Shown: positions 53,366-61,977 of the stretch, one piece after another | Numbering within the stretch: the first letter of the stretch is position 1 | How the letters are laid out: each line of letters opens with the position of its first letter | DNA from: Lachnospiraceae bacterium | GTDB taxonomy: Bacteria; Bacillota; Clostridia; Lachnospirales; Lachnospiraceae | Assembly (NCBI GenBank): GCA_024699325.1 | Contig: JAILPS010000006.1 | Coordinates: forward strand, 20,419 to 84,418 | Length of the DNA: 64,000 nt | Direction of reading: 5' to 3' | The notes under the pieces: model-generated | What the model was told of the DNA's origin: nothing | The model's input: only the letters and a program-made list of their open reading frames with translations | Databases searched by the model: none | Translations under genes and position numbers: made by a program

Positions 53366-54022
53366 ATGGTTAGAACAGTACTTTTTGATTTGGACGGAAC
53401 ACTTATCGACACGGAGAAATACTACAGACGCTGCTGGCCCATGGCGCTTAAGCATTTTGGCTATGACATGAGCGATGAGCAGGCGCTGTCCATGAGGAGT
53501 CTCGGAAGGCCGTTTGCGCCTAAGCATCTTAAGGAAATGTTTGGCGAGGATATCGACTACATAAGCGTTCGCGACTACAGAAAAATCCTCATGAACGAAA
53601 TGCTTGAAAACGACGGAATAGAGCTTAAAAGCGGGGCGCTTAAGCTTCTCACATGGCTTAGGGATAACGGCTACAGGGCGGGAGTTGCCACCGCGACGGA
53701 CCTTATAAGGACAGAGAAATACCTTCGTGAGGTTGAAATATTTGACTATTTCACGGACATAATAAGCGCCACACAGGTGGCAGAGGGCAAGCCAAGCCCT
53801 GACATATATCTGTATGCCTGTGAAAAACTTGGCGTCACTCCTGGGGAAGTGATCGCCGTGGAGGATTCTCCAAACGGCGTGCTAAGCGCCTACAGGGCGG
53901 GCTGCAAGGTCGTCATGGTGCCTGACCAGACGGAGCCTGACGAGGAGCTCAAAAAACTGCTGTTTGCAAGGCTTGAAACCCTGGACGAGTTGATAACACT
54001 TCTTGCAAATCAAAATATATAA
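53366..54022 (+). CDS. HAD-family phosphatase (beta-phosphoglucomutase-like subfamily)
   Basis: 218 aa with VLFDLDGTLIDTE motif I and the EDSPNG motif. Confidence 0.85.
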   Translation: MVRTVLFDLDGTLIDTEKYYRRCWPMALKHFGYDMSDEQALSMRSLGRPFAPKHLKEMFGEDIDYISVRDYRKILMNEMLENDGIELKSGALKLLTWLRDNGYRAGVATATDLIRTEKYLREVEIFDYFTDIISATQVAEGKPSPDIYLYACEKLGVTPGEVIAVEDSPNGVLSAYRAGCKVVMVPDQTEPDEELKKLLFARLETLDELITLLANQNI

Positions 54023-54061
54023 GAGTATAATATAACGGAATATAACTTTCGTGAGGCGGAT

Positions 54062-55147
54062 ATGGAGACAATTGTCGTTAGAGAGAGTGAACTGGATGAC
54101 TATTATGAGGAGGCCGGAAGGATACTGAGAGAGGGAGGTTTAGTGGCATTCCCCACAGAGACCGTGTACGGGCTTGGCGGCAACGCTCTTGACCCGGAGG
54201 CCTCAGCTAAAATATACGCAGCCAAGGGTCGTCCAAGCGACAACCCTCTGATTGTCCATGTGGCGGATTTTGCTGATGTGGCGCCCCTTGTCAGGGAGAT
54301 TACCCCTGTGGCGGATAAGCTCATGAAGAAGTTCTGGCCGGGCCCTCTTACCATAATCATGAATAAGAGCGACATAGTGCCCACGGCGACCACAGGAGGC
54401 CTTCAGAGCGTGGCAGTCAGAATGCCCGTGCACCCCGTGGCCATGAAGCTTATCAGGTGCGCAGGAGTTCCCATAGCAGCGCCAAGCGCCAACACATCCG
54501 GAAGACCAAGCCCCACGAAGGCTGAGCACGTCATCGAGGATCTGTTTGGCAGAGTGGACATGATAATGGACGGCGGAAGCGTCGGGATAGGAGTTGAATC
54601 CACCATCGTGGACGTGACGGGTGAGGTTCCAATGATTCTTCGCCCGGGCTACATCACGAAGGAAATGCTCACCGAGGCCATAGGCGATGTGACAATCGAT
54701 AAGGCGGTCGCTAAGATTAACGAGGGTCAGCTGATCACAAGCAAGGAGCCGCCGAAGGCTCCAGGCATGAAGTATCGCCACTACGCCCCGAAGGCTCCGC
54801 TTAATCTAATCTGCGGAGACGAGGAGGAGGTCGAGGCAGAGCTTAGAAAGCTCGCCGCACAGGGCAAGAGCGACGGGCTGAGAGTTGGAATCATATGCTC
54901 TGACGGGGCAGACCTTGACGGATGCGCCGACAGAGTCTATCACATAGGAAGGCGCGGGGACACAGAGACCATCGCGCACAATATTTACGATTGCTTAAGG
55001 CAGTGCGACGCCGACAAGCTCGACGTCATATACAGTGACGATTTCGGGCTTGAGAACGACGAGGCGCTGGGGTATGCTGTGCAGAACAGAATTATGAAGG
55101 CTGCGGGGGGACATGTGCTCAACCTGAAGCAGAAGGGCGATCTATGA
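54062..55147 (+). CDS. tsaC: L-threonylcarbamoyladenylate synthase, long Sua5/YwlC type
   Basis: 361 aa with FPTETVYGLGGNA, KGRPSDNPLIVH and SANTSGRPSPT motifs plus a C-terminal Sua5 domain. Confidence 0.92.
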   Translation: METIVVRESELDDYYEEAGRILREGGLVAFPTETVYGLGGNALDPEASAKIYAAKGRPSDNPLIVHVADFADVAPLVREITPVADKLMKKFWPGPLTIIMNKSDIVPTATTGGLQSVAVRMPVHPVAMKLIRCAGVPIAAPSANTSGRPSPTKAEHVIEDLFGRVDMIMDGGSVGIGVESTIVDVTGEVPMILRPGYITKEMLTEAIGDVTIDKAVAKINEGQLITSKEPPKAPGMKYRHYAPKAPLNLICGDEEEVEAELRKLAAQGKSDGLRVGIICSDGADLDGCADRVYHIGRRGDTETIAHNIYDCLRQCDADKLDVIYSDDFGLENDEALGYAVQNRIMKAAGGHVLNLKQKGDL

Positions 55148-55626
55148 GTCATTATAAGCGGATTTTGTTTATATGTAACGACAACACTTGCAGGAGCATT
55201 ATGGCTGAGGCCATTATGAAGAGCATCGAGAACAGCATAAGCGAGGAAAACAGGCCCAGGGTGCACTCCAGGGGCCTTGTAGTGCTGTTTAGCGAGCCGA
55301 TAAACCCCAAGGCGGTCATGGTTATGAGAAAAAACCACCTAGAGCCCGCCAAGGAGACAAGCCAGCAGTTTACGGACGCTGACTGCAAGGAGGGAACGCT
55401 GTATCTCACCATGACCGAGAGGGAGAAGAGAATGGTTGAGGAGATGGTTCCGCATCTGTCAAACCTCTACACCCTGAGGGAGTTCGTGGGCGAGGTGGGG
55501 GACATCAACGAGCCCTACGGCGGAACCGAGGAAGACTATGAGATGGTATATGAGCACATCGACCTGATGGTCAAGATGGTTGCTCAGAAAATTATAAGAT
55601 TTGGGGAACAGAAGGAGGATGTGTAA
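55144..55626 (+). CDS. Low-molecular-weight protein phosphatase (YwlE-like arginine/tyrosine phosphatase)
   Basis: 160 aa with the CX5R(S) P-loop ICNDNTCRS. The position after tsaC matches ywlC-ywlE synteny. Confidence 0.85.
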   Translation: MSHYKRILFICNDNTCRSIMAEAIMKSIENSISEENRPRVHSRGLVVLFSEPINPKAVMVMRKNHLEPAKETSQQFTDADCKEGTLYLTMTEREKRMVEEMVPHLSNLYTLREFVGEVGDINEPYGGTEEDYEMVYEHIDLMVKMVAQKIIRFGEQKEDV

Positions 55627-56066
55627 TGATAGCGATAGGAAGTGACCACGGCGGATTCGCACTTAAGGAGGTTGTGGCGAAGCATTTGAAGGAGTTGGGA
55701 CTTGACTATGTGGACTGCGGCTGCTACGACATTTCAAGCGTGGATTATCCTGTGTACGCACAGGCGGTTGCAAGAGAGATACAGTCAGGCAAATGTGACA
55801 GAGGAATACTGGTGTGCAGCACGGGAATAGGAATCTCCATGGCTGCCAACAAGTGCACAGGCATAAGAGCTGCTCTTTGCTCAGAGCCATACAGTGCCAA
55901 GATGACCAGACTTCACAACGATGCCAATGTTTTGTGCATGGGCGGACTGGTTGTGGGGGACAACTTAGCGCTCGAGATAGTTGACACATTTTTAAACACA
56001 GAGTTTTCAGGCGAGGCCAGACATCAGAGAAGAATTGATCTGATCGAGTCAGGCAAGCTTGTGTAA
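55626..56066 (+). CDS. rpiB: Ribose-5-phosphate isomerase B
   Basis: 146 aa with IAIGSDHGG and the CSTGIGISMAANK motif. Confidence 0.93.
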   Translation: MIAIGSDHGGFALKEVVAKHLKELGLDYVDCGCYDISSVDYPVYAQAVAREIQSGKCDRGILVCSTGIGISMAANKCTGIRAALCSEPYSAKMTRLHNDANVLCMGGLVVGDNLALEIVDTFLNTEFSGEARHQRRIDLIESGKLV

Positions 56067-56089
56067 GATGTTTTATGGGGGATAAAACT

Positions 56090-56278
56090 ATGAGCAGGGG
56101 TACAGGATTTGGAATACTTGGCGTGATAGTTTTGATTATCATGCTGGCGCTGGGGTCATGCGGCGTTAACACCGACAGGGGAATAGACAGGACAGGTGCA
56201 GGCGACTATGTTGACTACTACGGCTGCCCGAACTCCAGGAGAGTCAAGAAGCTCAACCTGGCAAAAAAGAAGAGATAA
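56090..56278 (+). CDS. Small lipobox peptide A (62 aa), candidate precursor/substrate of the adjacent radical SAM enzyme
   Basis: The track ORF starts at 56075. ATG 56090 follows GGGGGAT. The sequence is MSRGTGFGILGVIVLIIMLALGSCGVNTDRGIDRTGAGDYVDYYGCPNSRRVKKLNLAKKKR. It has a signal peptide with an LGSC lipobox and a C-terminal module shared with peptide B. Confidence 0.65.
   Translation: MSRGTGFGILGVIVLIIMLALGSCGVNTDRGIDRTGAGDYVDYYGCPNSRRVKKLNLAKKKR
56215..56278 (+). repeat. Direct repeat copy 1 (3' end of peptide A gene)
   Basis: It shares an identical 21-mer, CTACTACGGCTGCCCGAACTC, with 57974-57994. The remainder is about 75 percent identical. Confidence 0.8.
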
Positions 56279-56281
56279 TCT

Positions 56282-57859
56282 ATGGTTAGAGAAGTGACAC
56301 CAGATCTTAGAATTCTGCTCGTGGAGGTCACGCAGAAGTGCAATGCATCCTGCGACCACTGCGGAAGCAGATGTGATATCCATAGCGCGGAGGTTTTGAC
56401 AGCCGAGGATATTTTGGGAGTTTTTCGAGATGTCAGGGACAATATAGGGACCGATGTCATGATTAATATCACAGGCGGCGAGCCCCTTATGAGGCGTGAC
56501 CTGTTTGATATTATGGGCCAGGCCCACGACATGGGATTTGACTGGGGGATGGTCACCAACGGCTCCATGATTGACGACAACATCATAGAGAAGATGCGTA
56601 GTGCCGGCATGAGGACCATAACGATTAGTCTTGACGGTCTGGCGCACACACACGAGACCATCAGACATCTTCCGGGGTCTTTTGAGCGCATTATGAAGTC
56701 CCTTAAGAAGCTTAAGGATGCGGCGTTTTTAGACTGTGTGCAGGTGACATTTACATCAAACAGGAAGAATTACAGGGAGTTTCCTAAGCTCTACGAGAGG
56801 CTTGAGCAGATCGGAATAGATTCTGTGAGGACCAGCATCATAGACCCTATCGGAAGGGCTTGCGATCACAGTGAGCTACTCATGGGGCGCGAGGAGATAC
56901 GCTTCATGATGGATTTCGCCAACCGTGTGAACGCGGCTGGAAGGATGCCTGTCATCTGGGGCTGTCCGCATTTTCTGGGAGATAAGCTTGAAAACAGGCA
57001 CTTCTTCTGCTTTGCGGGGATATATGCGGCGAGCATTCTCTATAACGGAGACATATTTGTGTGTCCGAATGTCCCCAGAAGACCTGAGCTTATTCAGGGC
57101 AATATTAAGACCGAGCGCTTCAGCGAGGTCTGGAAAAACGGCTATGATTACTTTAGACACAGAGTGCTTCCCGAGAAATGTGAGACTTGTAAATACCGCG
57201 ACGACTGCGCGGGCGACAGCCTCCACACATTTGACTTTGACAGGAAAGCGCCAAACTTCTGCTATAAGGAAATATTTGACGTGAATATAGGAAAATACGA
57301 AAACTGGCTCAAAAAACACTACGGAAGTGTTGAGATAACAGAGATTTCGCCGGATGAGCCGGCGCCAGCCATCTACATAGAGCCTGGCGCCTATGAGGAG
57401 ATTAAGTCATACTTTCACATGGGGGTCAGACATCCCCTGAGCATGTTTGAGCAGCAGATGGGGCTTGTTGGATTTAAGGTTGACGGCGACTACATAGTCC
57501 GCTATGCATTTCCATCTGTGATTGAGGCGAAGGCGGCGGACCTTGCGGTGTTTACGCCTGGGACGCTATCGCACGCGAGGAAGCAGACGGCCATCATTAA
57601 GCGCAATGTCATGCACTCTGACTGGGCCGACATGCCTGGCAATGACAGGCTTCGCTTTTTGGGCTTCATACATTCACATCCCATGCAGGAGGAGTTGTGC
57701 TACAGCGTGGGAGACGAGATAATTCACAAAAGTCTGTATAAGAAGTTTGGGGATTATATAGGACTGTTAGTTAATCCTGAACACGATTTGATTGGCGCCT
57801 ATGTGGGCGGCGATGACATCGTTCAGGGAAATCTCAAGATTGTAAATGTGGGGGATTAA
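56282..57859 (+). CDS. Radical SAM / SPASM-like enzyme with a C-terminal JAMM/MPN-like domain
   Basis: 525 aa. The radical SAM motif is CNASCDHC (C20, C24, C27). The auxiliary-cluster Cys pattern is CX12GX4C (CFAGIYAASILYNGDIFVC) followed by CETCKYRDDC (CX2CX5C). The C-terminal ~165 aa carry FIHSHPMQEELCYSVGDE (HxH-x8-S-xx-D) and an upstream EPGAYEE Glu. Confidence 0.8.
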   Translation: MVREVTPDLRILLVEVTQKCNASCDHCGSRCDIHSAEVLTAEDILGVFRDVRDNIGTDVMINITGGEPLMRRDLFDIMGQAHDMGFDWGMVTNGSMIDDNIIEKMRSAGMRTITISLDGLAHTHETIRHLPGSFERIMKSLKKLKDAAFLDCVQVTFTSNRKNYREFPKLYERLEQIGIDSVRTSIIDPIGRACDHSELLMGREEIRFMMDFANRVNAAGRMPVIWGCPHFLGDKLENRHFFCFAGIYAASILYNGDIFVCPNVPRRPELIQGNIKTERFSEVWKNGYDYFRHRVLPEKCETCKYRDDCAGDSLHTFDFDRKAPNFCYKEIFDVNIGKYENWLKKHYGSVEITEISPDEPAPAIYIEPGAYEEIKSYFHMGVRHPLSMFEQQMGLVGFKVDGDYIVRYAFPSVIEAKAADLAVFTPGTLSHARKQTAIIKRNVMHSDWADMPGNDRLRFLGFIHSHPMQEELCYSVGDEIIHKSLYKKFGDYIGLLVNPEHDLIGAYVGGDDIVQGNLKIVNVGD

Positions 57860-57860
57860 T

Positions 57861-58037
57861 ATGAAGAGACATAAGGGGATTATTCTTGCGGTTATGCTGT
57901 TGCTTGCAAGCCTTGCGCTTGGAGCATGTAATTTCACAAGTGTATTTGACGGAGGGGGAGGCGAGTATATGAGCTACTACGGCTGCCCGAACTCTAAGAA
58001 GGTTAAGAAGCTTAACCTTAAGAAGAATAAGAGATAG
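57861..58037 (+). CDS. Small lipobox peptide B (58 aa), paralog of peptide A
   Basis: The track ORF starts at 57846. ATG 57861 follows GGGGGAT and lies 1 nt after the enzyme's stop. The sequence is [58 protein letters not shown]. Confidence 0.65.
57974..58037 (+). repeat. Direct repeat copy 2 (3' end of peptide B gene)
   Basis: See copy 1. The differences are mostly synonymous or R/K exchanges. Confidence 0.8.
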
Positions 58038-58048
58038 AGAGGTGTGCG

Positions 58049-58534
58049 ATGGCTAAGAGAAAGGATTATATCAGCTGGGATGAATATTTTATGGGGGTTG
58101 CTGAGCTGTCCGCGAGGAGAAGCAAGGACCCTGGAACACAGGTGGGAGCCTGTATTGTGAGCCCGTCTAACAAGATTATATCCATGGGCTACAACGGTTT
58201 TCCGATGGGCTGCTCTGACGATGAATTCCCCTGGGAGAGGGACGGAGAGGATCCGTTTGACACGAAGTACACATATGTGACTCACGCTGAGATGAACGCA
58301 ATCCTTAACAACCGCACCTCCAGCCTTGAGGGCTGCAGGCTGTATGTGACGCTGTTTCCATGTAACGAATGTGCGAAGGCTGTCATCCAGTCAGGCATCA
58401 AGGAGGTAATCTACGCCTCCGACAAATACGCCCAGACAAGCGCCGTGAAGGCGAGCAAGAGAATGTTTGACGCCGCGGGCGTTAAATACACGCCATACGA
58501 GGGCAGCAACAAGGAAATACTGCTTGTTCTCTAA
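58049..58534 (+). CDS. comEB: dCMP deaminase (ComEB-type)
   Basis: 161 aa with the zinc motifs HAEMNA and PCNECAK. Confidence 0.9.
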
Positions 58535-58550
58535 TTTTTGGCTGTTTTGC

Positions 58551-58579
58551 TTGACTGCGGTTTTAATAACTGATATTAT
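58551..58579 (+). promoter_or_regulatory. Promoter TTGACT-N17-TATTAT upstream of the malic enzyme gene
   Basis: -35 at 58551-58556 and -10 at 58574-58579. Confidence 0.45.
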
Positions 58580-58648
58580 TTAGAACGCTACTCGCAGGAT
58601 TTGGGGGAGGAATCGGCGGGCAAGTATATAGATGAGAAGGAGATAATC

Positions 58649-59800
58649 ATGACCATCAACGAGAGAGCATTAGAGCTTCATGAGCAGTGGAACGGCAAGC
58701 TTGAGACCGTTTCTAAGACTAAGGTTAATACAAGAGAGGATCTCTCCCTTGCGTACACACCGGGCGTTGCTGAGCCTTGTAAGGTAATCGCGAAGGATCC
58801 GGAAGCAGCATACAAGTACACAATCAAGTCCAACACCGTGGCTGTAGTTTCAGACGGAAGTGCGGTTTTGGGACTTGGCAATATAGGGGCTCTCGCCGCC
58901 ATGCCTGTCATGGAGGGCAAGGCCGTTTTGTTTAAGGAGTTTGGCGGTGTCAATGCATTTCCAATCTGCTTAGACACACAGGACACAGAGGAGATTATCG
59001 AGACAGTCGTAAGGATTGCGCCCGCATTTGGCGGTATCAACCTTGAGGACATCGCGGCTCCAAGATGTTTCGAGATAGAGGAGAGGCTTAAGAAGCTTCT
59101 CGACATCCCGGTTATGCACGATGACCAGCACGGCACGGCAATCGTGGTGCTCGCAGGTATCATTAACGCCCTGAAGGTCACCGGCAAGAAGAAGGAGGAC
59201 TGCAAGGTCGTAGTAAACGGCGCGGGAAGCGCGGGCGTTGCCATCACCAAGCTCCTCTTAAACTATGGTTTTCCAAACATCACCATGGTTGACAAGGTGG
59301 GAATTCTGTGTAAGGGCATGGAGGGTCTCAACTGGATGCAGGAGAAGATGGTGGAGGTGACCAACCTTTCACATGCCACAGGTTCTCTCGCAGACGCTCT
59401 TAGGGGTGCTGACATCTTCGTCGGCGTCTCAGCTCCAAACATTGTGAGCCCTGAGATGGTTAAGAGCATGAATAAGGATTCCATACTGTTTGCCATGGCA
59501 AACCCTGTTCCTGAGATTATGCCTGACGTGGCGAAGGCAGCAGGCGCAAGAGTTGTGGGCACAGGAAGAAGCGATTTCCCTAACCAGGTGAACAATGTAT
59601 TGATCTTCCCTGGAATATTTAAGGGAGCCCTCGAGGGAAGAGCAACAGCCATCACAGAGGAAATGAAGCTCGCAGCCGCAGAGGCTATCGCGGCATTAGT
59701 TCCGGAGGATGAGCTCAGTGATGTCAACATTCTTCCTGAGGCATTTGACCCTAGAGTTGCCAACACGGTTGCAGCCAAGGTTAAGGAGTTTATCCGCTAA
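58649..59800 (+). CDS. NAD(P)-dependent malic enzyme (short bacterial type)
   Basis: The track ORF starts at TTG 58601. ATG 58649 follows GAAGGAG. It has LAYTPGVAEPC, VVSDGSAVLGLGNIG and NGAGSAGVA motifs. Confidence 0.92.
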   Translation: MTINERALELHEQWNGKLETVSKTKVNTREDLSLAYTPGVAEPCKVIAKDPEAAYKYTIKSNTVAVVSDGSAVLGLGNIGALAAMPVMEGKAVLFKEFGGVNAFPICLDTQDTEEIIETVVRIAPAFGGINLEDIAAPRCFEIEERLKKLLDIPVMHDDQHGTAIVVLAGIINALKVTGKKKEDCKVVVNGAGSAGVAITKLLLNYGFPNITMVDKVGILCKGMEGLNWMQEKMVEVTNLSHATGSLADALRGADIFVGVSAPNIVSPEMVKSMNKDSILFAMANPVPEIMPDVAKAAGARVVGTGRSDFPNQVNNVLIFPGIFKGALEGRATAITEEMKLAAAEAIAALVPEDELSDVNILPEAFDPRVANTVAAKVKEFIR

Positions 59801-59834
59801 TATTTAAAGAATCTTACAGAGAGGAGGTGACCGC

Positions 59835-60350
59835 ATGGTTTCGGAACCTACAACTCTTTACAAGCTTATGATTCTTCATATGCTTAAGAAGGTTAATTTT
59901 CCCCTCACGAACAGTCAGCTTACTGACTTCTTCAACAGCAGGGATTACGCGAATTATTTTACGCTTCAGCAGGTTATAAGTGAGCTCTTAGATGCCAACC
60001 TTATCCATGCGGAAACCATCAGAAATTCTACAAGATATGAGCTTACCAAGGAGGGGGAGGACGTACTCTACTTTTTTGGCAAGCAGATTTCCCCGACCAT
60101 CGTGGAGGACATGGACAAGTTCCTGACAGAGAACAAGTTCCAGCTCAGAAGCGAGGTGGGCGTGACCGCTGACTACTATAAGGGGGCAGCGGGAAGCTAC
60201 ATCGTGGACTGCCGCATCAGGGAGGGCAAGGAGAACCTGATAGAGCTTAAGATAAGCGTTCCGAGCGAGGAGCAGGCCATATCAGTCTGCGACAAGTGGG
60301 AGAAGGAGAACCAGGATATCTACACTCTGGTTATGCAAAAGTTACTTTAA
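59835..60350 (+). CDS. DUF4364-like putative transcriptional regulator (PadR-like wHTH)
   Basis: 171 aa. The N-terminal YKLMILHMLKKVNFPLTNSQLTDFF is typical of this clostridial family. The call is from recall only. Confidence 0.5.
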   Translation: MVSEPTTLYKLMILHMLKKVNFPLTNSQLTDFFNSRDYANYFTLQQVISELLDANLIHAETIRNSTRYELTKEGEDVLYFFGKQISPTIVEDMDKFLTENKFQLRSEVGVTADYYKGAAGSYIVDCRIREGKENLIELKISVPSEEQAISVCDKWEKENQDIYTLVMQKLL

Positions 60351-60356
60351 CATCAC

Positions 60357-60383
60357 GGCGCGGCATCTGCCGCGCCTATTTTT
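60357..60383 (+). terminator. Rho-independent terminator
   Basis: GGCGCGGC-atct-GCCGCGCC followed by TATTTTT. Confidence 0.8.
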
Positions 60384-60501
60384 AAACATGTCTTGAATTA
60401 TCCCGACATCTAGTGTATAATATTTTACGTCTTAATTATACTTTTAACCCTTGTCAGACATATTTGCCTGACAAATCCCAGAACAGTAAAGAGAGTTTAT
60501 A

Positions 60502-61977
60502 ATGGAATATGCAAAGTTTAAGGTGGATAAGCTTAGAGAGCTTGCCGCCAGTCTTATGATTCCTGAGCCTAACAAGCTAAAAAAACAGGAACTTTTGGAA
60601 AAAATAGAGGCCATAATAGGGCCTTCAGTTGCAGCAGAGCCGGAGCCCAAGCGTGAGCCAAAGCGCGAGCCCAAGCGTGAGCCAAAGAGCGAGCCTAAGA
60701 GCGAGCCCAAGCCGGAGCCTGTCAAAATCCCCATCCCTGAGAGGGTGCTTCGCATCATGAGGGAGGACGAAATCGATGAGCTCGCGGCAGACGCGTGGGA
60801 GCCGCAGGCGCCGTTTGGCATGAGCCGTGAGAGGTTTTTTGAGTCCGTCTCAGGAGATATCGTCACAGGTCTGTTTGACATTCAGCCTGACAACAACTAC
60901 GGCTTCATCAGAAGCGACGGCAACGGAACCATCGACGAGGACGTGTACGTAGGCGCGGGTCAGGTCAGACGTTTTAATCTAAAATGCGGCGACTATATTG
61001 TCTGCGGCACGAGAAACAAGCTGCCCGCTGACAAAAGCCCTGGACTTCTGTTTGTGAAGAGCATCAACTCCCACAGCGTGGAGGAGAGCAAAAAACGCAA
61101 AGATTTTGATAAGATGACCCCTATTTATCCCATGGAGAGGCTTAAAATGGAGCACATGGGATGCCCCATGAGCATGAGGGTGGTGGATCTTCTAAGCCCG
61201 ATAGGCAAGGGCCAGAGAGGAATGATCGTGTCGCCCCCTAAGGCCGGCAAGACTACTCTTATCAAACAGATTGCCAGATCTATCGCCAAATCAAACCCTG
61301 ACGTGAACTTAATCGTCCTGCTTATAGATGAGAGACCTGAGGAGGTTACGGACATAACAGAGGCGATTGCAGGACCCAATGTATCGGTTGTGGCGTCAAC
61401 ATTTGACGAGCAGCCTGAGCACCACAAGTCTGTCAGCGAGAAGGTTATAGAGAAGGCCAAGAGAATGGTTGAATACGGCGATGACGTGGTGATACTTTTA
61501 GATTCGCTCACCAGACTCTCAAGAGCCTACAACCTTACAGTAAACCCAAGCGGCAGAACGCTCTCAGGAGGTTTAGACCCCACGGCGCTCTACTTCCCGA
61601 AGAAGTTTTTTGGAGCGGCCAGAAACATGCGTGAGGGCGGAAGCCTGACCATACTTGCGACAGCGCTTATAGACACCGGAAGCCGCATGGACGATGTCAT
61701 CTTCGAGGAGTTTAAGGGCACGGGCAATATGGAGCTTGTGCTTGACAGGAAGCTCTCCGAGAGAAGGTTCTTCCCTGCGATAGATGTGGCGGGCTCAGGC
61801 ACGAGAAATGAGGAGCTGCTACTTAGCCGCGAGGAGTTTGAGGCCACGGGAATAGTGAGACGCGCTTTGGCGGGAAGCAAGAGCGAGGAGGTTGCCGAGC
61901 GTTTGCTTGATCTGTTTAACAAGAGCAGGACAAACGCGGAGCTTGTTGATTACATTAGAAAGACAAGATATATTTGA
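60502..61977 (+). CDS. rho: Transcription termination factor Rho with a short charged N-terminal insertion
   Basis: 491 aa. It has an N-terminal Rho_N (LRELAASLMIPEPNKLKKQELLEKI), an EPKR repeat insert, an OB/CSD region, the P-loop PPKAGKTT and a RecA-type core. Confidence 0.95.
   Translation: MEYAKFKVDKLRELAASLMIPEPNKLKKQELLEKIEAIIGPSVAAEPEPKREPKREPKREPKSEPKSEPKPEPVKIPIPERVLRIMREDEIDELAADAWEPQAPFGMSRERFFESVSGDIVTGLFDIQPDNNYGFIRSDGNGTIDEDVYVGAGQVRRFNLKCGDYIVCGTRNKLPADKSPGLLFVKSINSHSVEESKKRKDFDKMTPIYPMERLKMEHMGCPMSMRVVDLLSPIGKGQRGMIVSPPKAGKTTLIKQIARSIAKSNPDVNLIVLLIDERPEEVTDITEAIAGPNVSVVASTFDEQPEHHKSVSEKVIEKAKRMVEYGDDVVILLDSLTRLSRAYNLTVNPSGRTLSGGLDPTALYFPKKFFGAARNMREGGSLTILATALIDTGSRMDDVIFEEFKGTGNMELVLDRKLSERRFFPAIDVAGSGTRNEELLLSREEFEATGIVRRALAGSKSEEVAERLLDLFNKSRTNAELVDYIRKTRYI
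60637..60720 (+). repeat. In-frame 12-nt tandem repeat (about 7 units, GAGCCNAAGNGN) encoding (EPKR/EPKS)n within rho
   Basis: GAGCCG GAGCCCAAGCGT GAGCCAAAGCGC GAGCCCAAGCGT GAGCCAAAGAGC GAGCCTAAGAGC GAGCCCAAGCCG GAGCCT. Confidence 0.85.

What the first reader, a model, noticed from the sequence alone, without database searches (positions are those of the whole stretch)
56075..58037. Candidate undescribed peptide-modification (RiPP-like) cassette: two paralogous small ORFs flanking a radical-SAM/SPASM-JAMM fusion enzyme
Seen directly in the sequence:
- A 525-aa ORF has a canonical radical SAM CX3CX2C motif (CNASCDHC) and a SPASM-like auxiliary Cys pattern (CX12GX4C ... CX2CX5C).
- It is bracketed by two roughly 60-aa ORFs with the same architecture and a nearly identical C-terminal module, YYGCPNS[RK][RK]VKKLNL.K..KR.
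- Spacing is minimal: peptide A stop, 3 nt, enzyme ATG; enzyme stop, 1 nt, peptide B ATG. Both peptide genes carry the same GGGGGAT Shine-Dalgarno-like element.
Established knowledge: SPASM/twitch radical SAM enzymes encoded next to short ORFs are the hallmark of sactipeptide, ranthipeptide, streptide, QhpC and anSME-type peptide or protein maturation.
Inference:
- The small ORFs are substrates of the enzyme.
- The invariant Cys in the YYGCPNS motif, or the adjacent Tyr or Asn, is the modification site. This could be a thioether or C-C crosslink.
- Alternatively the change could be Cys to formylglycine, because CPNS[RK] loosely resembles the sulfatase C-x-P-x-R motif handled by the SPASM enzyme anSME.
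I do not recognise the peptide motif from any named RiPP family, but I could not search databases.
Basis: partly seen in the sequence, partly recalled or inferred. Interest (0 to 1): 0.92.

Follow-up and report, generated by a model that had tools for sequence, protein, structure and literature searches.

The report
Radical-SAM/JAMM enzyme with Tyr-Gly-motif lipopeptide precursors
Two small lipoprotein-like genes flank a fused radical-SAM/metalloprotease gene; this peptide-plus-enzyme module recurs in hundreds of gut and rumen Clostridia and looks like an undescribed peptide and protein maturation system, probably acting at a Tyr-Gly site.

Summary
pepA (56090-56278, 62 aa) and pepB (57861-58037, 58 aa) flank a 525-aa radical SAM/SPASM enzyme whose C-terminal third is a JAMM/MPN+ metalloprotease domain.

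Sixty of 61 related JAMM-bearing genomic loci carry 1-6 same-strand neighbouring ORFs. Each ORF has an invariant Y-G-C-P (Y-G-A-P in one locus) 13-45 residues from its C-terminus.

The parts N-terminal of the motif are unrelated to one another: lipoprotein signals (as here), amphipathic or transmembrane helices, a zinc ribbon, or a ubiquitin-like domain. The tail after the motif is clade-specific.

JAMM-less relatives of the enzyme sit next to proteins with repeated VYG[IVT]P[DN] motifs. The shared determinant is therefore X-Y-G-x-P, not the Cys. This matches the LYGLP splice tag of the tyramine-excising splicease PlpXY.

Best reading: the radical SAM domain remodels the Tyr-Gly site, with splicease-type chemistry the leading candidate. 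The fused JAMM domain then removes the C-terminal tail. Its nearest unfused relatives lie in E1/E2/JAB operons.

No curated family or searchable paper describes this system. All chemistry is inferred.

The parts
56077..56082 (+). Shine-Dalgarno-like GGGGGA, 7 nt before the pepA ATG
   Evidence: Sequence. The same element precedes pepB.
56090..56278 (+). pepA: 62-aa precursor, MSRGTGFGILGVIVLIIMLALGSC | GVNTDRGIDRTGAGDYVD-YYGCPNS-RRVKKLNLAKKKR
   Evidence: Annotated as hypothetical protein MCR5742385.1. The family has 451 cluster representatives, none named.
56090..56161 (+). pepA lipoprotein-type signal peptide ending in the lipobox Cys24 (LALGSC)
   Evidence: Read directly from the sequence. 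The closest relatives have canonical lipoboxes (LSAC, LAGC, LSGC, IASC). No dedicated signal-peptide predictor was run.
56216..56236 (+). pepA invariant motif YYGCPNS (residues 43-49); predicted modification and cleavage site
   Evidence: Y, G, C, P, N and S are invariant in the 25-peptide alignment A4. YGCP is found in 85 ORFs next to the enzyme.
56237..56275 (+). pepA basic C-terminal tail RRVKKLNLAKKKR; predicted recognition sequence removed by the JAMM domain
   Evidence: The tail type changes with the enzyme clade. Its role is inferred.
56282..57859 (+). Fusion enzyme, 525 aa: radical SAM core, SPASM domain and JAMM/MPN+ domain
56339..56362 (+). CX3CX2C radical SAM cluster motif CNASCDHC (C20, C24, C27); C31 is also invariant
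   Evidence: Invariant in all 80 loci.
56957..57271 (+). SPASM auxiliary-cluster domain (about aa 226-330) with seven invariant Cys: 228, 243, 261, 300, 303, 309, 327
   Evidence: Pfam PF13186 at 34 bits, aa 243-304. Invariance.
57323..57856 (+). JAMM/MPN+ (JAB) metalloprotease domain, about aa 348-525
   Evidence: Secondary structure from the AF2 model.
57449..57451 (+). Glu390 (EQQ), the predicted JAMM catalytic glutamate
   Evidence: Invariant in all 61 JAMM-bearing enzymes.
57671..57715 (+). JAMM zinc motif H464-S-H466-x8-S475-x2-D478 (HSHPMQEELCYSVGD)
   Evidence: Invariant in all 61 JAMM-bearing enzymes. It aligns with the HxH...S..D motif of AMSH-family JAMM proteases.
57850..57855 (+). 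Shine-Dalgarno-like GGGGGA for pepB, lying inside the 3' end of the enzyme gene
   Evidence: Sequence.
57861..58037 (+). pepB: 58-aa precursor, [23 protein letters not shown] | [35 protein letters not shown] (lipobox Cys23 at 57927-57929)
   Evidence: Annotated as hypothetical protein MCR5742387.1.
57975..57995 (+). pepB invariant motif YYGCPNS (residues 39-45)

Best explanation
This is a self-contained post-translational maturation module made of precursor(s) plus one bifunctional enzyme.

pepA and pepB are pre-lipoprotein-like precursors. Each has a signal peptide with a lipobox Cys, a 15-20 aa linker, the invariant YYGCPNS motif and a basic 13-aa tail.

Step 1 (inferred): in the cytoplasm, the three-cluster radical SAM/SPASM domain acts on the X-Y-G-x-P site.
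- The most likely chemistry is splicease-type excision of a tyramine equivalent from the Tyr before Gly.

Step 2 (inferred): the fused JAMM metalloprotease cuts at or next to the Gly-Cys bond. This removes the clade-specific C-terminal tail, which serves as the recognition (follower) sequence.

Step 3 (inferred): the remaining N-terminal part is exported and lipidated. The product would be a roughly 20-residue membrane-anchored lipopeptide with a modified C-terminal region.

Shown here:
- The anatomy of the cassette.
- Conservation of all catalytic residues in both domains.
- The obligatory peptide-enzyme adjacency.
- The motif shared with validated splicease substrates.

My estimates:
- Enzyme-substrate pairing: about 0.9.
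- JAMM removal of the tail: about 0.5.
- Tyramine splicing as the radical SAM chemistry: about 0.4.
For: Pairing of enzyme and peptides:
- 60 of 61 JAMM-bearing loci have 1-6 same-strand adjacent ORFs with YG[C/A]P near the C-terminus.
- No other gene is conserved around them.
- Synteny with the window exists only in L001, so the module moves as a unit.
- The peptides are under protein-level selection.

Both domains look active:
- 11 Cys and E390/H464/H466/S475/D478 are invariant down to 35% identity.
- The whole-protein fold search is led by peptide-modifying SPASM/twitch enzymes: SkfB, SuiB, CteB, anSME, PqqE.

JAMM identity:
- The only PDB sequence hits of the domain profile are AMSH/STAMBP JAMM proteases, aligned on the zinc motif.
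- Proteins matched by the profile at E = 7e-20 to 5e-5 pass Pfam's JAB cut-off.
- Two of those proteins lie in ThiF(E1)+UQ_con(E2) operons.

Tail removal:
- The motif is always single and 13-45 residues from the C-terminus in JAMM-bearing systems. It is internal and repeated in JAMM-less ones.
- The tail co-varies with the enzyme clade.
- One clade's substrate has a ubiquitin-like domain upstream of LYGCP. Its top fold matches are almost all ubiquitin-like or ubiquitin-superfold domains, TM 0.70-0.80. This mirrors JAB processing of ubiquitin-like precursors after Gly.
- The position after Gly is small (Cys or Ala) only where the JAMM domain is present.

Splicing chemistry:
- Only X-Y-G-x-P is common to the substrates of the whole enzyme superfamily.
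- Spliceases are SPASM radical SAM enzymes that act at X-Y-G (PMC11414181, PMC11002830).
- The validated PlpXY splice tag is PIRPLYGLPI, that is LYGLP (PMC10533398).
Against: - There are no experimental data of any kind.
- The enzyme is not in the PlpX family model: TIGR04103 scores 110 bits against a cut-off of 725 and aligns to the N-terminal half only. The splicing idea therefore rests on the substrate motif alone.
- Pfam's JAB models do not hit the window's own domain, and the His-to-Ser spacer is one residue longer than canonical.
- The cleavage site and the order of the two steps are guesses.
- A peptide-enzyme structural model could not be made.
- The window's lipoboxes have Gly at position -2, and no signal-peptide predictor was available.
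- It is unclear why a cytoplasmic modification should be put on an exported lipopeptide.
- One JAMM-bearing locus (L036) has no recognisable precursor within 4 kb.
Confidence: 0.5

Rival explanations
1. Classical Cys-centred RiPP. The radical SAM enzyme makes a sacti- or ranthipeptide-type thioether, or a Tyr-Cys or C-C crosslink, using the Cys of YYGCP. The JAMM domain acts as the leader or follower peptidase, and the product is a secreted bioactive peptide.
For: - The closest structural matches include the thioether-forming SkfB and CteB and the crosslinking SuiB.
- Cys is present in 85 of 87 precursors of JAMM-bearing enzymes.
- Tandem precursor copies, up to 6 in L016, are typical of RiPPs.
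Against: - Both precursors in L049 have Ala in place of Cys although the enzyme is fully intact.
- Relatives with about 45% identical radical SAM domains pair with YG[IVTP]P substrates that have no Cys.
- There is only one Cys in the mature region.
- There is no RiPP recognition element: no PqqD hit, and the radical SAM core starts at about residue 10.
- No transporter or immunity gene is conserved nearby.
- Some substrates are 145-200 aa proteins.
Confidence: 0.15
2. Peptide-derived small molecule or cofactor, following PQQ or mycofactocin logic. The variable N-terminal parts are mere scaffolds. A product built from the Tyr-Gly-(Cys) residues is excised, with the JAMM domain making one of the cuts.
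For: - Only four residues are invariant, on otherwise unrelated scaffolds.
- MftC and PqqE family models are among the matches, and PqqE is among the fold matches.
- The cassette sits among housekeeping genes and appears co-transcribed with them: it starts 23 nt after rpiB with no terminator-like site in between.
Against: - One endopeptidase domain cannot release an internal di- or tripeptide on its own, and no second protease, tailoring enzyme or user enzyme is conserved nearby.
- Membrane-targeting N-termini and multiple tandem precursors are hard to explain for a scaffold.
- JAMM-less relatives modify repeated internal sites in large proteins.
Confidence: 0.12
3. anSME-like oxidation of the Cys to formylglycine.
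For: - anSME is among the structural matches.
- CPNS[KR] loosely resembles the sulfatase motif.
Against: - The register is wrong: C-P-x-x-K/R rather than C-x-P-x-R.
- Sister clades have CPMAQS, CPVSSE, CPNPSE or CPTAKD, with no basic residue at that position.
- Cys is replaced by Ala in L049.
- The sulfatase maturase model is not among the 25 best NCBIfam matches of the window enzyme.
- No sulfatase domain is present in the substrates.
Confidence: 0.03
4. The small ORFs are not substrates. They would be membrane-anchored partners, regulators or localisation factors of an enzyme that acts on something else.
For: - The N-termini are mostly membrane-targeting.
- No chemistry has been demonstrated.
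Against: - An invariant four-residue motif inside otherwise unrelated proteins is the signature of a modification site, not of a binding partner.
- The copy number varies from 1 to 6.
- The motif equals a known splicease recognition sequence.
Confidence: 0.05

Closest known systems
Spliceotide systems (tyramine spliceases PlpX/PlpXY, RhaX; TIGR04103 / IPR026482)
   Same: - The enzyme is a SPASM-type radical SAM protein encoded next to its precursors.
- The substrate determinant is X-Y-G. The validated PlpA2 splice tag PIRPLYGLPI even shares the Y-G-x-P spacing with YYGCP and VYGIP (PMC10533398).
- Motifs can be repeated, and whole proteins can be substrates (PMC11414181).
   Different: - The enzyme is not a member of the PlpX model: 110 bits against a cut-off of 725, with partial alignment.
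- There is no PlpY partner and no Nif11/NHLP leader.
- The conserved recognition sequence lies C-terminal of the site.
- A JAMM protease is fused to the enzyme.
- The precursors carry lipoprotein signals or a ubiquitin-like domain.
- The chemistry is untested here.
- I could not read Scott et al. 2022 (Chem 8:2659), which lists 939 predicted spliceases, so prior listing of this family cannot be excluded.
TIGR04133 'rSAM_w_lipo' radical SAM/SPASM family (a hypothetical equivalog that, from my own knowledge of TIGRFAMs, was defined by its neighbourhood with small lipoproteins of TIGR04134)
   Same: - It is the best-scoring curated model for the radical SAM/SPASM part: 243 bits, aligned over aa 8-328.
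- The window enzyme is also flanked by small lipoprotein-like ORFs.
   Different: - The score is well below the curated cut-off of 425.
- The peptides do not hit TIGR04134 even at E <= 1.
- TIGR04133 has no JAMM domain.
- The family has no known function, so it explains nothing mechanistically.
Bacterial ubiquitin-like (E1/E2/JAB) operons, and JAB processing of ubiquitin-like or sulfur-carrier proteins
   Same: - The nearest unfused relatives of the C-terminal domain are JAB proteins next to ThiF and UQ_con genes.
- A sister clade's substrate has a ubiquitin-like fold followed by ...LYG-CP....
- From my own knowledge, JAMM enzymes such as QbsD and Mec+ cut after a C-terminal Gly, including Gly-Cys junctions.
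   Different: - No E1 or E2 accompanies the cassette.
- The window's substrates have no ubiquitin-like domain.
- The protease is fused to a radical SAM enzyme.
Sactipeptide, ranthipeptide and streptide maturases (SkfB, CteB, SuiB)
   Same: - They are the best structural matches of the radical SAM/SPASM part.
- Their precursors are encoded next to the enzyme.
   Different: - There is no N-terminal RiPP recognition element.
- There is no multi-Cys or Lys-Trp core.
- The Cys is dispensable in relatives.

Membership tests
Radical SAM superfamily with SPASM domain | CX3CX2C cluster motif and a Radical_SAM Pfam match | tested here: met
   CNASCDHC at aa 20-27. PF04055 scores 82.6 bits against a cut-off of 29.5. 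The motif is invariant in 80 loci.
Radical SAM superfamily with SPASM domain | C-terminal seven-Cys SPASM motif (CX9-15GX4C ... CX2CX5C ... C) | tested here: met
   PF13186 scores 34 bits against a cut-off of 21.5. C228, C243-x12-G-x4-C261, C300-x2-C303-x5-C309 and C327 are all invariant.
JAMM/MPN+ (JAB) metalloprotease | Catalytic Glu plus the H-x-H-x7-S-x2-D zinc motif | tested here: met
   E390, H464, H466, S475 and D478 are invariant in 61 enzymes. The spacer is 8 residues rather than 7.
JAMM/MPN+ (JAB) metalloprotease | Sequence homology to JAB families (PF01398 / PF14464) | tested here: met
   - Direct Pfam scan of the window's domain: no hit.
- Relatives: weak hits in 6 and 5 of 16.
- The domain profile hits only JAMM proteases in the PDB, E = 0.15-0.7.
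- Transitive link: P0263, P0275, P0285 and P0305 are matched at 7e-20 to 5e-5 and pass the PF01398 cut-off.
JAMM/MPN+ (JAB) metalloprotease | MPN fold | tested here: inconclusive
   The AF2 model is confident over most of this region (10-residue block means of pLDDT 66-94). A strand leads to HxH and a helix carries S..D. The whole-protein fold search was dominated by the radical SAM part, and no domain-only search was run.
TIGR04133 rSAM_w_lipo | Score at or above the curated cut-off (425 bits) | tested here: not met
   243.2 bits. JAMM-less relatives score 285-319 bits, also below the cut-off.
TIGR04133 rSAM_w_lipo | Adjacent TIGR04134-type lipoprotein | tested here: not met
   pepA and pepB do not match TIGR04134 at E <= 1. 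They are nevertheless lipoprotein-like.
Spliceotide / splicease | X-Y-G motif in the adjacent precursor | tested here: met
   YYG in both peptides. Y-G is invariant in 87 precursors and in the repeats of relatives. It matches the PlpA2 tag LYGLP.
Spliceotide / splicease | Enzyme belongs to the PlpX class (TIGR04103 / IPR026482) | tested here: not met
   110.6 bits against a cut-off of 725, aa 13-216 only.
Spliceotide / splicease | Loss of C8H9NO (-135.07 Da) with ketoamide formation | not testable with these tools
   This needs co-expression and MS/MS.
Sactipeptide / ranthipeptide | Cys donor residues essential in the core, and an N-terminal RiPP recognition element in the maturase | tested here: not met
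   Cys is replaced by Ala in L049 and by I/V/T/P in relatives. There is no PqqD-like match, and the radical SAM core starts at about residue 10.
anSME / sulfatase maturation | C/S-x-P-x-R motif in the substrate | tested here: not met
   The motif is C-P-N-S-[KR]. Sister clades lack the basic residue.
Bacterial lipoprotein precursors (signal peptidase II substrates) | Basic n-region, hydrophobic core and lipobox ending in Cys at positions 15-35 | tested here: inconclusive
   The pattern is present by eye and by regular expression: LALGSC (Cys24) and LALGAC (Cys23). Relatives have LSAC, LAGC and LSGC. No dedicated predictor was available.
Known anti-phage defence systems (PADLOC) | Match to a defence-system protein model | tested here: not met
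   Only generic viperin-type radical SAM core matches were found. There was nothing for the JAMM domain or the peptide.

The most novel reading that the evidence does not exclude
The fusion enzyme is the first natural maturation machine for ketoamide (spliceotide-type) products. It splices the Tyr-Gly site and then uses a deubiquitinase-like JAMM domain to cut the Gly-Cys bond.

This would create membrane-anchored lipopeptides and, in a sister clade, ubiquitin-like proteins. These would carry a radical-SAM-remodelled, possibly reactive C-terminus.

That would be an E1-independent way of activating or arming a ubiquitin-like tail, and a new class of cell-surface protease-inhibitor lipopeptides in gut and rumen Clostridia.
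Probability: 0.2. Interest if true: 0.9.

Novelty: new variant of a known kind. Interest (0 to 1): 0.78.

Why it matters
Scale:
- There are more than 100 full-length enzyme clusters among 1566 homologues.
- There are at least 451 precursor clusters.
- The organisms are uncultured rumen and gut Clostridia. Every gene is labelled only 'radical SAM protein' or 'hypothetical protein'.

New combination: the system joins three things not previously linked in the literature I could search.
- A SPASM radical SAM enzyme.
- A deubiquitinase-type JAMM protease.
- Substrates that range from lipopeptides to a ubiquitin-like protein.

[quoted passage not shown] If the chemistry here is tyramine splicing, this would be a splicease with a built-in protease. 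It would offer a direct handle on that question and a compact two-gene tool for installing and exposing ketoamides.

Wider pattern: the X-Y-G-x-P rule also ties in a broader, uncharacterised TIGR04133-like enzyme superfamily.

Tried and rejected
- **Peptide-enzyme structure model.** No docking evidence exists.
- **Direct Pfam scan of the C-terminal domain.** It found nothing. JAMM identity had to be reached through profile and transitive searches.
- **Profile comparison of the 145-aa substrates with ubiquitin.** It was not significant (probability 0.75%), and the PDB sequence search gave nothing. Only the AF2 model plus fold search showed the ubiquitin-like fold.
- **Family scans of substrates from all clades.** Pfam and NCBIfam gave no family; one clade shows an N-terminal zinc ribbon.
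- **PADLOC.** No defence-system membership.
- **Rfam on the whole window.** Nothing.
- **Literature.**
  - No paper holds YGCP-type motifs in this sense.
  - TIGR04133 is not mentioned in any paper in the library.
  - No radical SAM plus JAMM RiPP is described.
  - Scott et al. 2022 is not held.
- **Metagenome scan aimed at true TIGR04133 members.** It returned only more sub-threshold relatives.
- **Formylglycine and Cys-thioether readings.** Rejected on motif comparison.
Full report
**1. Observation**

The region holds three tightly packed, co-directional genes.
- The central ORF (56282-57859, 525 aa) carries CNASCDHC and passes the Pfam Radical_SAM and SPASM cut-offs.
- Each flanking small ORF is preceded by GGGGGA 5-7 nt upstream of an ATG (56090 and 57861). 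The products are therefore 62 and 58 aa. GenBank calls exactly these genes as hypothetical proteins.
- Both peptides start with a lipoprotein-type signal (LALGSC and LALGAC). Both end in YYGCPNS[RK][RK]VKKLNL.K..KR.
- The 84-nt 3' modules are 77% identical.
- The cassette lies between rpiB and a dCMP-deaminase gene, 23 nt after rpiB. No terminator-like site separates them.
- GC content is 0.489 for the cassette and 0.517 and 0.502 for the flanks.

**2. The enzyme**

NCBIfam's best model is TIGR04133 'rSAM_w_lipo', at 243 bits against a cut-off of 425.
- An AF2 model has mean pLDDT 87.
- Its radical SAM/SPASM part is closest to SkfB, SuiB, BlsE, CteB, anSME and PqqE.

The last roughly 180 residues give no direct Pfam hit. 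Several lines still identify the domain as JAMM.
- A profile of this domain hits only AMSH/STAMBP JAMM proteases in the PDB, aligned on HxH...S..D.
- Prok-JAB and JAB are the commonest weak Pfam hits among homologues.
- A profile search of 1.84 billion representatives found 77 proteins. Unfused members among them pass Pfam's JAB cut-off.
- Two of these unfused proteins lie in ThiF(E1)+UQ_con(E2) operons.

All eleven Cys and E390/H464/H466/S475/D478 are invariant in every JAMM-bearing homologue, down to 35% identity. Both halves are therefore probably catalytic.

**3. The peptides are the conserved partners**

A species-level genome collection gave 80 loci; 61 of them have the JAMM fusion.
- 59 loci have one to six same-strand adjacent ORFs with YGCP 13-45 residues from the C-terminus.
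- The Oribacterium locus L049 has two ORFs with YYGAP.
- Only L036 has none.
- No other gene is conserved around the module. Synteny with the window is limited to the closest relative, L001.

Codon statistics show selection on the protein. Positional entropy is 0.50/0.46/1.25 bits, and the invariant Ser uses both codon families. The peptide family has at least 451 cluster representatives, all unnamed.

**4. Anatomy of the substrates**

Upstream of the motif the proteins are unrelated to one another.
- Lipoprotein signals (the window and other Lachnospiraceae).
- An amphipathic helix of the type MRAFFRRIALWFKNLFH (most rumen Clostridia).
- Transmembrane helices.
- A roughly 190-aa zinc-ribbon protein.
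- A roughly 145-aa protein. Its N-terminal 90 residues fold as a ubiquitin-like beta-grasp domain (pLDDT 80-88). Its top fold matches are almost all ubiquitin-like or ubiquitin-superfold domains, including TBCE, ubiquitin, SUMO, ISG15 and UBX, at TM 0.70-0.80.

Downstream of the motif the tail is clade-specific:
- [12 protein letters not shown]..
- NSKKAQKLQL.KKLYR
- MA.SVEEAINQAEKYS..DS
- VSSEIEK.Y.G..QTAEII

**5. What is truly invariant**

JAMM-less relatives of the enzyme are about 45% identical and also score best, below the cut-off, against TIGR04133.
- They sit next to proteins with one to four repeats of KYDI.PE.N.PQ.VYG[IVT]P[DN].
- Others sit next to small membrane proteins with AVYGPP, ALYGVP or LYGP motifs.

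The determinant common to the whole superfamily is therefore hydrophobic-Y-G-x-P. Cys, or Ala, at position x is specific to the JAMM-bearing branch.

This argues against Cys as the radical SAM target and against a sulfatase-type motif. It suggests instead that a small residue after Gly is a requirement of the protease.

**6. Mechanism**

X-Y-G is the defining site of tyramine spliceases. [quoted passage not shown] The validated PlpXY splice tag PIRPLYGLPI has the same Y-G-x-P spacing (PMC10533398).

I therefore rank splicing as the leading candidate for the radical SAM step. The enzyme is not in the PlpX model, so this rests on the substrate motif only.

Four observations point to removal of the C-terminal tail by the JAMM domain at or near Gly-Cys:
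- The kinship of the domain with JAB proteins of E1/E2 operons.
- The ubiquitin-like substrate in a sister clade.
- The single motif placed near the C-terminus.
- The tail that co-varies with the enzyme clade.

In the window, the N-terminal remainder would then be exported and lipidated. All of these steps are inferred.

**7. Comparison and novelty**

The system works like a RiPP or spliceotide cassette. It fails the membership tests for TIGR04133/TIGR04134, for the PlpX class, for sacti- and ranthipeptide maturases and for anSME.

No curated model or searchable paper describes the fusion or the motif. Scott et al. 2022, which lists 939 predicted spliceases, could not be read.

I rate it a new variant of a known kind, with high interest.

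Noticed in passing
L059-L080 (e.g. L071:5033-5647, L073:5012-8710) and L084-L163: A JAMM-less sister system occurs in Bacilli, RF39-type and Acholeplasma-like gut MAGs. A 365-aa TIGR04133-like radical SAM/SPASM gene is followed by a 200-1200 aa protein with 1-4 repeats of KYDI.PE.N.PQ.VYG[IVT]P[DN]. In other clades it is followed by roughly 100-aa signal-plus-TM proteins with AVYGPP or ALYGVP motifs. A P-loop NTPase-like 445-aa gene is conserved upstream in 10 loci.
   Followed up: partly
L031-L046 and L054 (e.g. L032:3530-3970); proteins P0316-P0435: About 145-aa proteins combine a ubiquitin-like beta-grasp domain with a C-terminal ...RCLYGCPMA.SVEEA... extension. They are always directly upstream of a radical SAM/SPASM-JAMM gene and have no E1 or E2 nearby. 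One cluster (P0333) is seen on 184 contigs.
   Followed up: yes
L081:1937-9260, L082, L083: The closest unfused JAB relatives lie in operons of a small ORF, ThiF (E1), a UQ_con-like E2, JAB, a Ser/Thr kinase, a small Fer4_12/radical-SAM-like protein and a ClpB-like AAA ATPase. Two of the three loci (L081, L083) also hold a transglutaminase-core gene. This looks like an uncharacterised ubiquitin-like conjugation system.
   Followed up: no
L049:3959-6001 (P0038, 670 aa): The Oribacterium homologue carries two large low-complexity insertions, one of them repeats of the RDAQISQIE type, inside the radical SAM and SPASM regions. All catalytic residues are kept. Its two precursors have YYGAP instead of YYGCP.
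   Followed up: partly
L056 and L063: Two contigs binned as Methanocorpusculum (archaeal) MAGs carry the full module, each with two CLYGCP precursors. This is either horizontal transfer into a methanogen or a binning error.
   Followed up: no
window 53366-61977: The cassette is inserted in a co-directional run of housekeeping genes: HAD phosphatase, Sua5/TsaC, a low-molecular-weight phosphatase, RpiB, then the cassette, then dCMP deaminase, malic enzyme, a 171-aa ORF and Rho. Only the 67%-identical relative L001 shares this position, so the module has been placed independently in different genomes.
   Followed up: partly
window 56282-57859, aa 226-230: The enzyme itself contains W-G-C-P-H at the first SPASM cysteine (C228, invariant), a faint echo of the substrate's Y-G-C-P. 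It is probably a coincidence.
   Followed up: no
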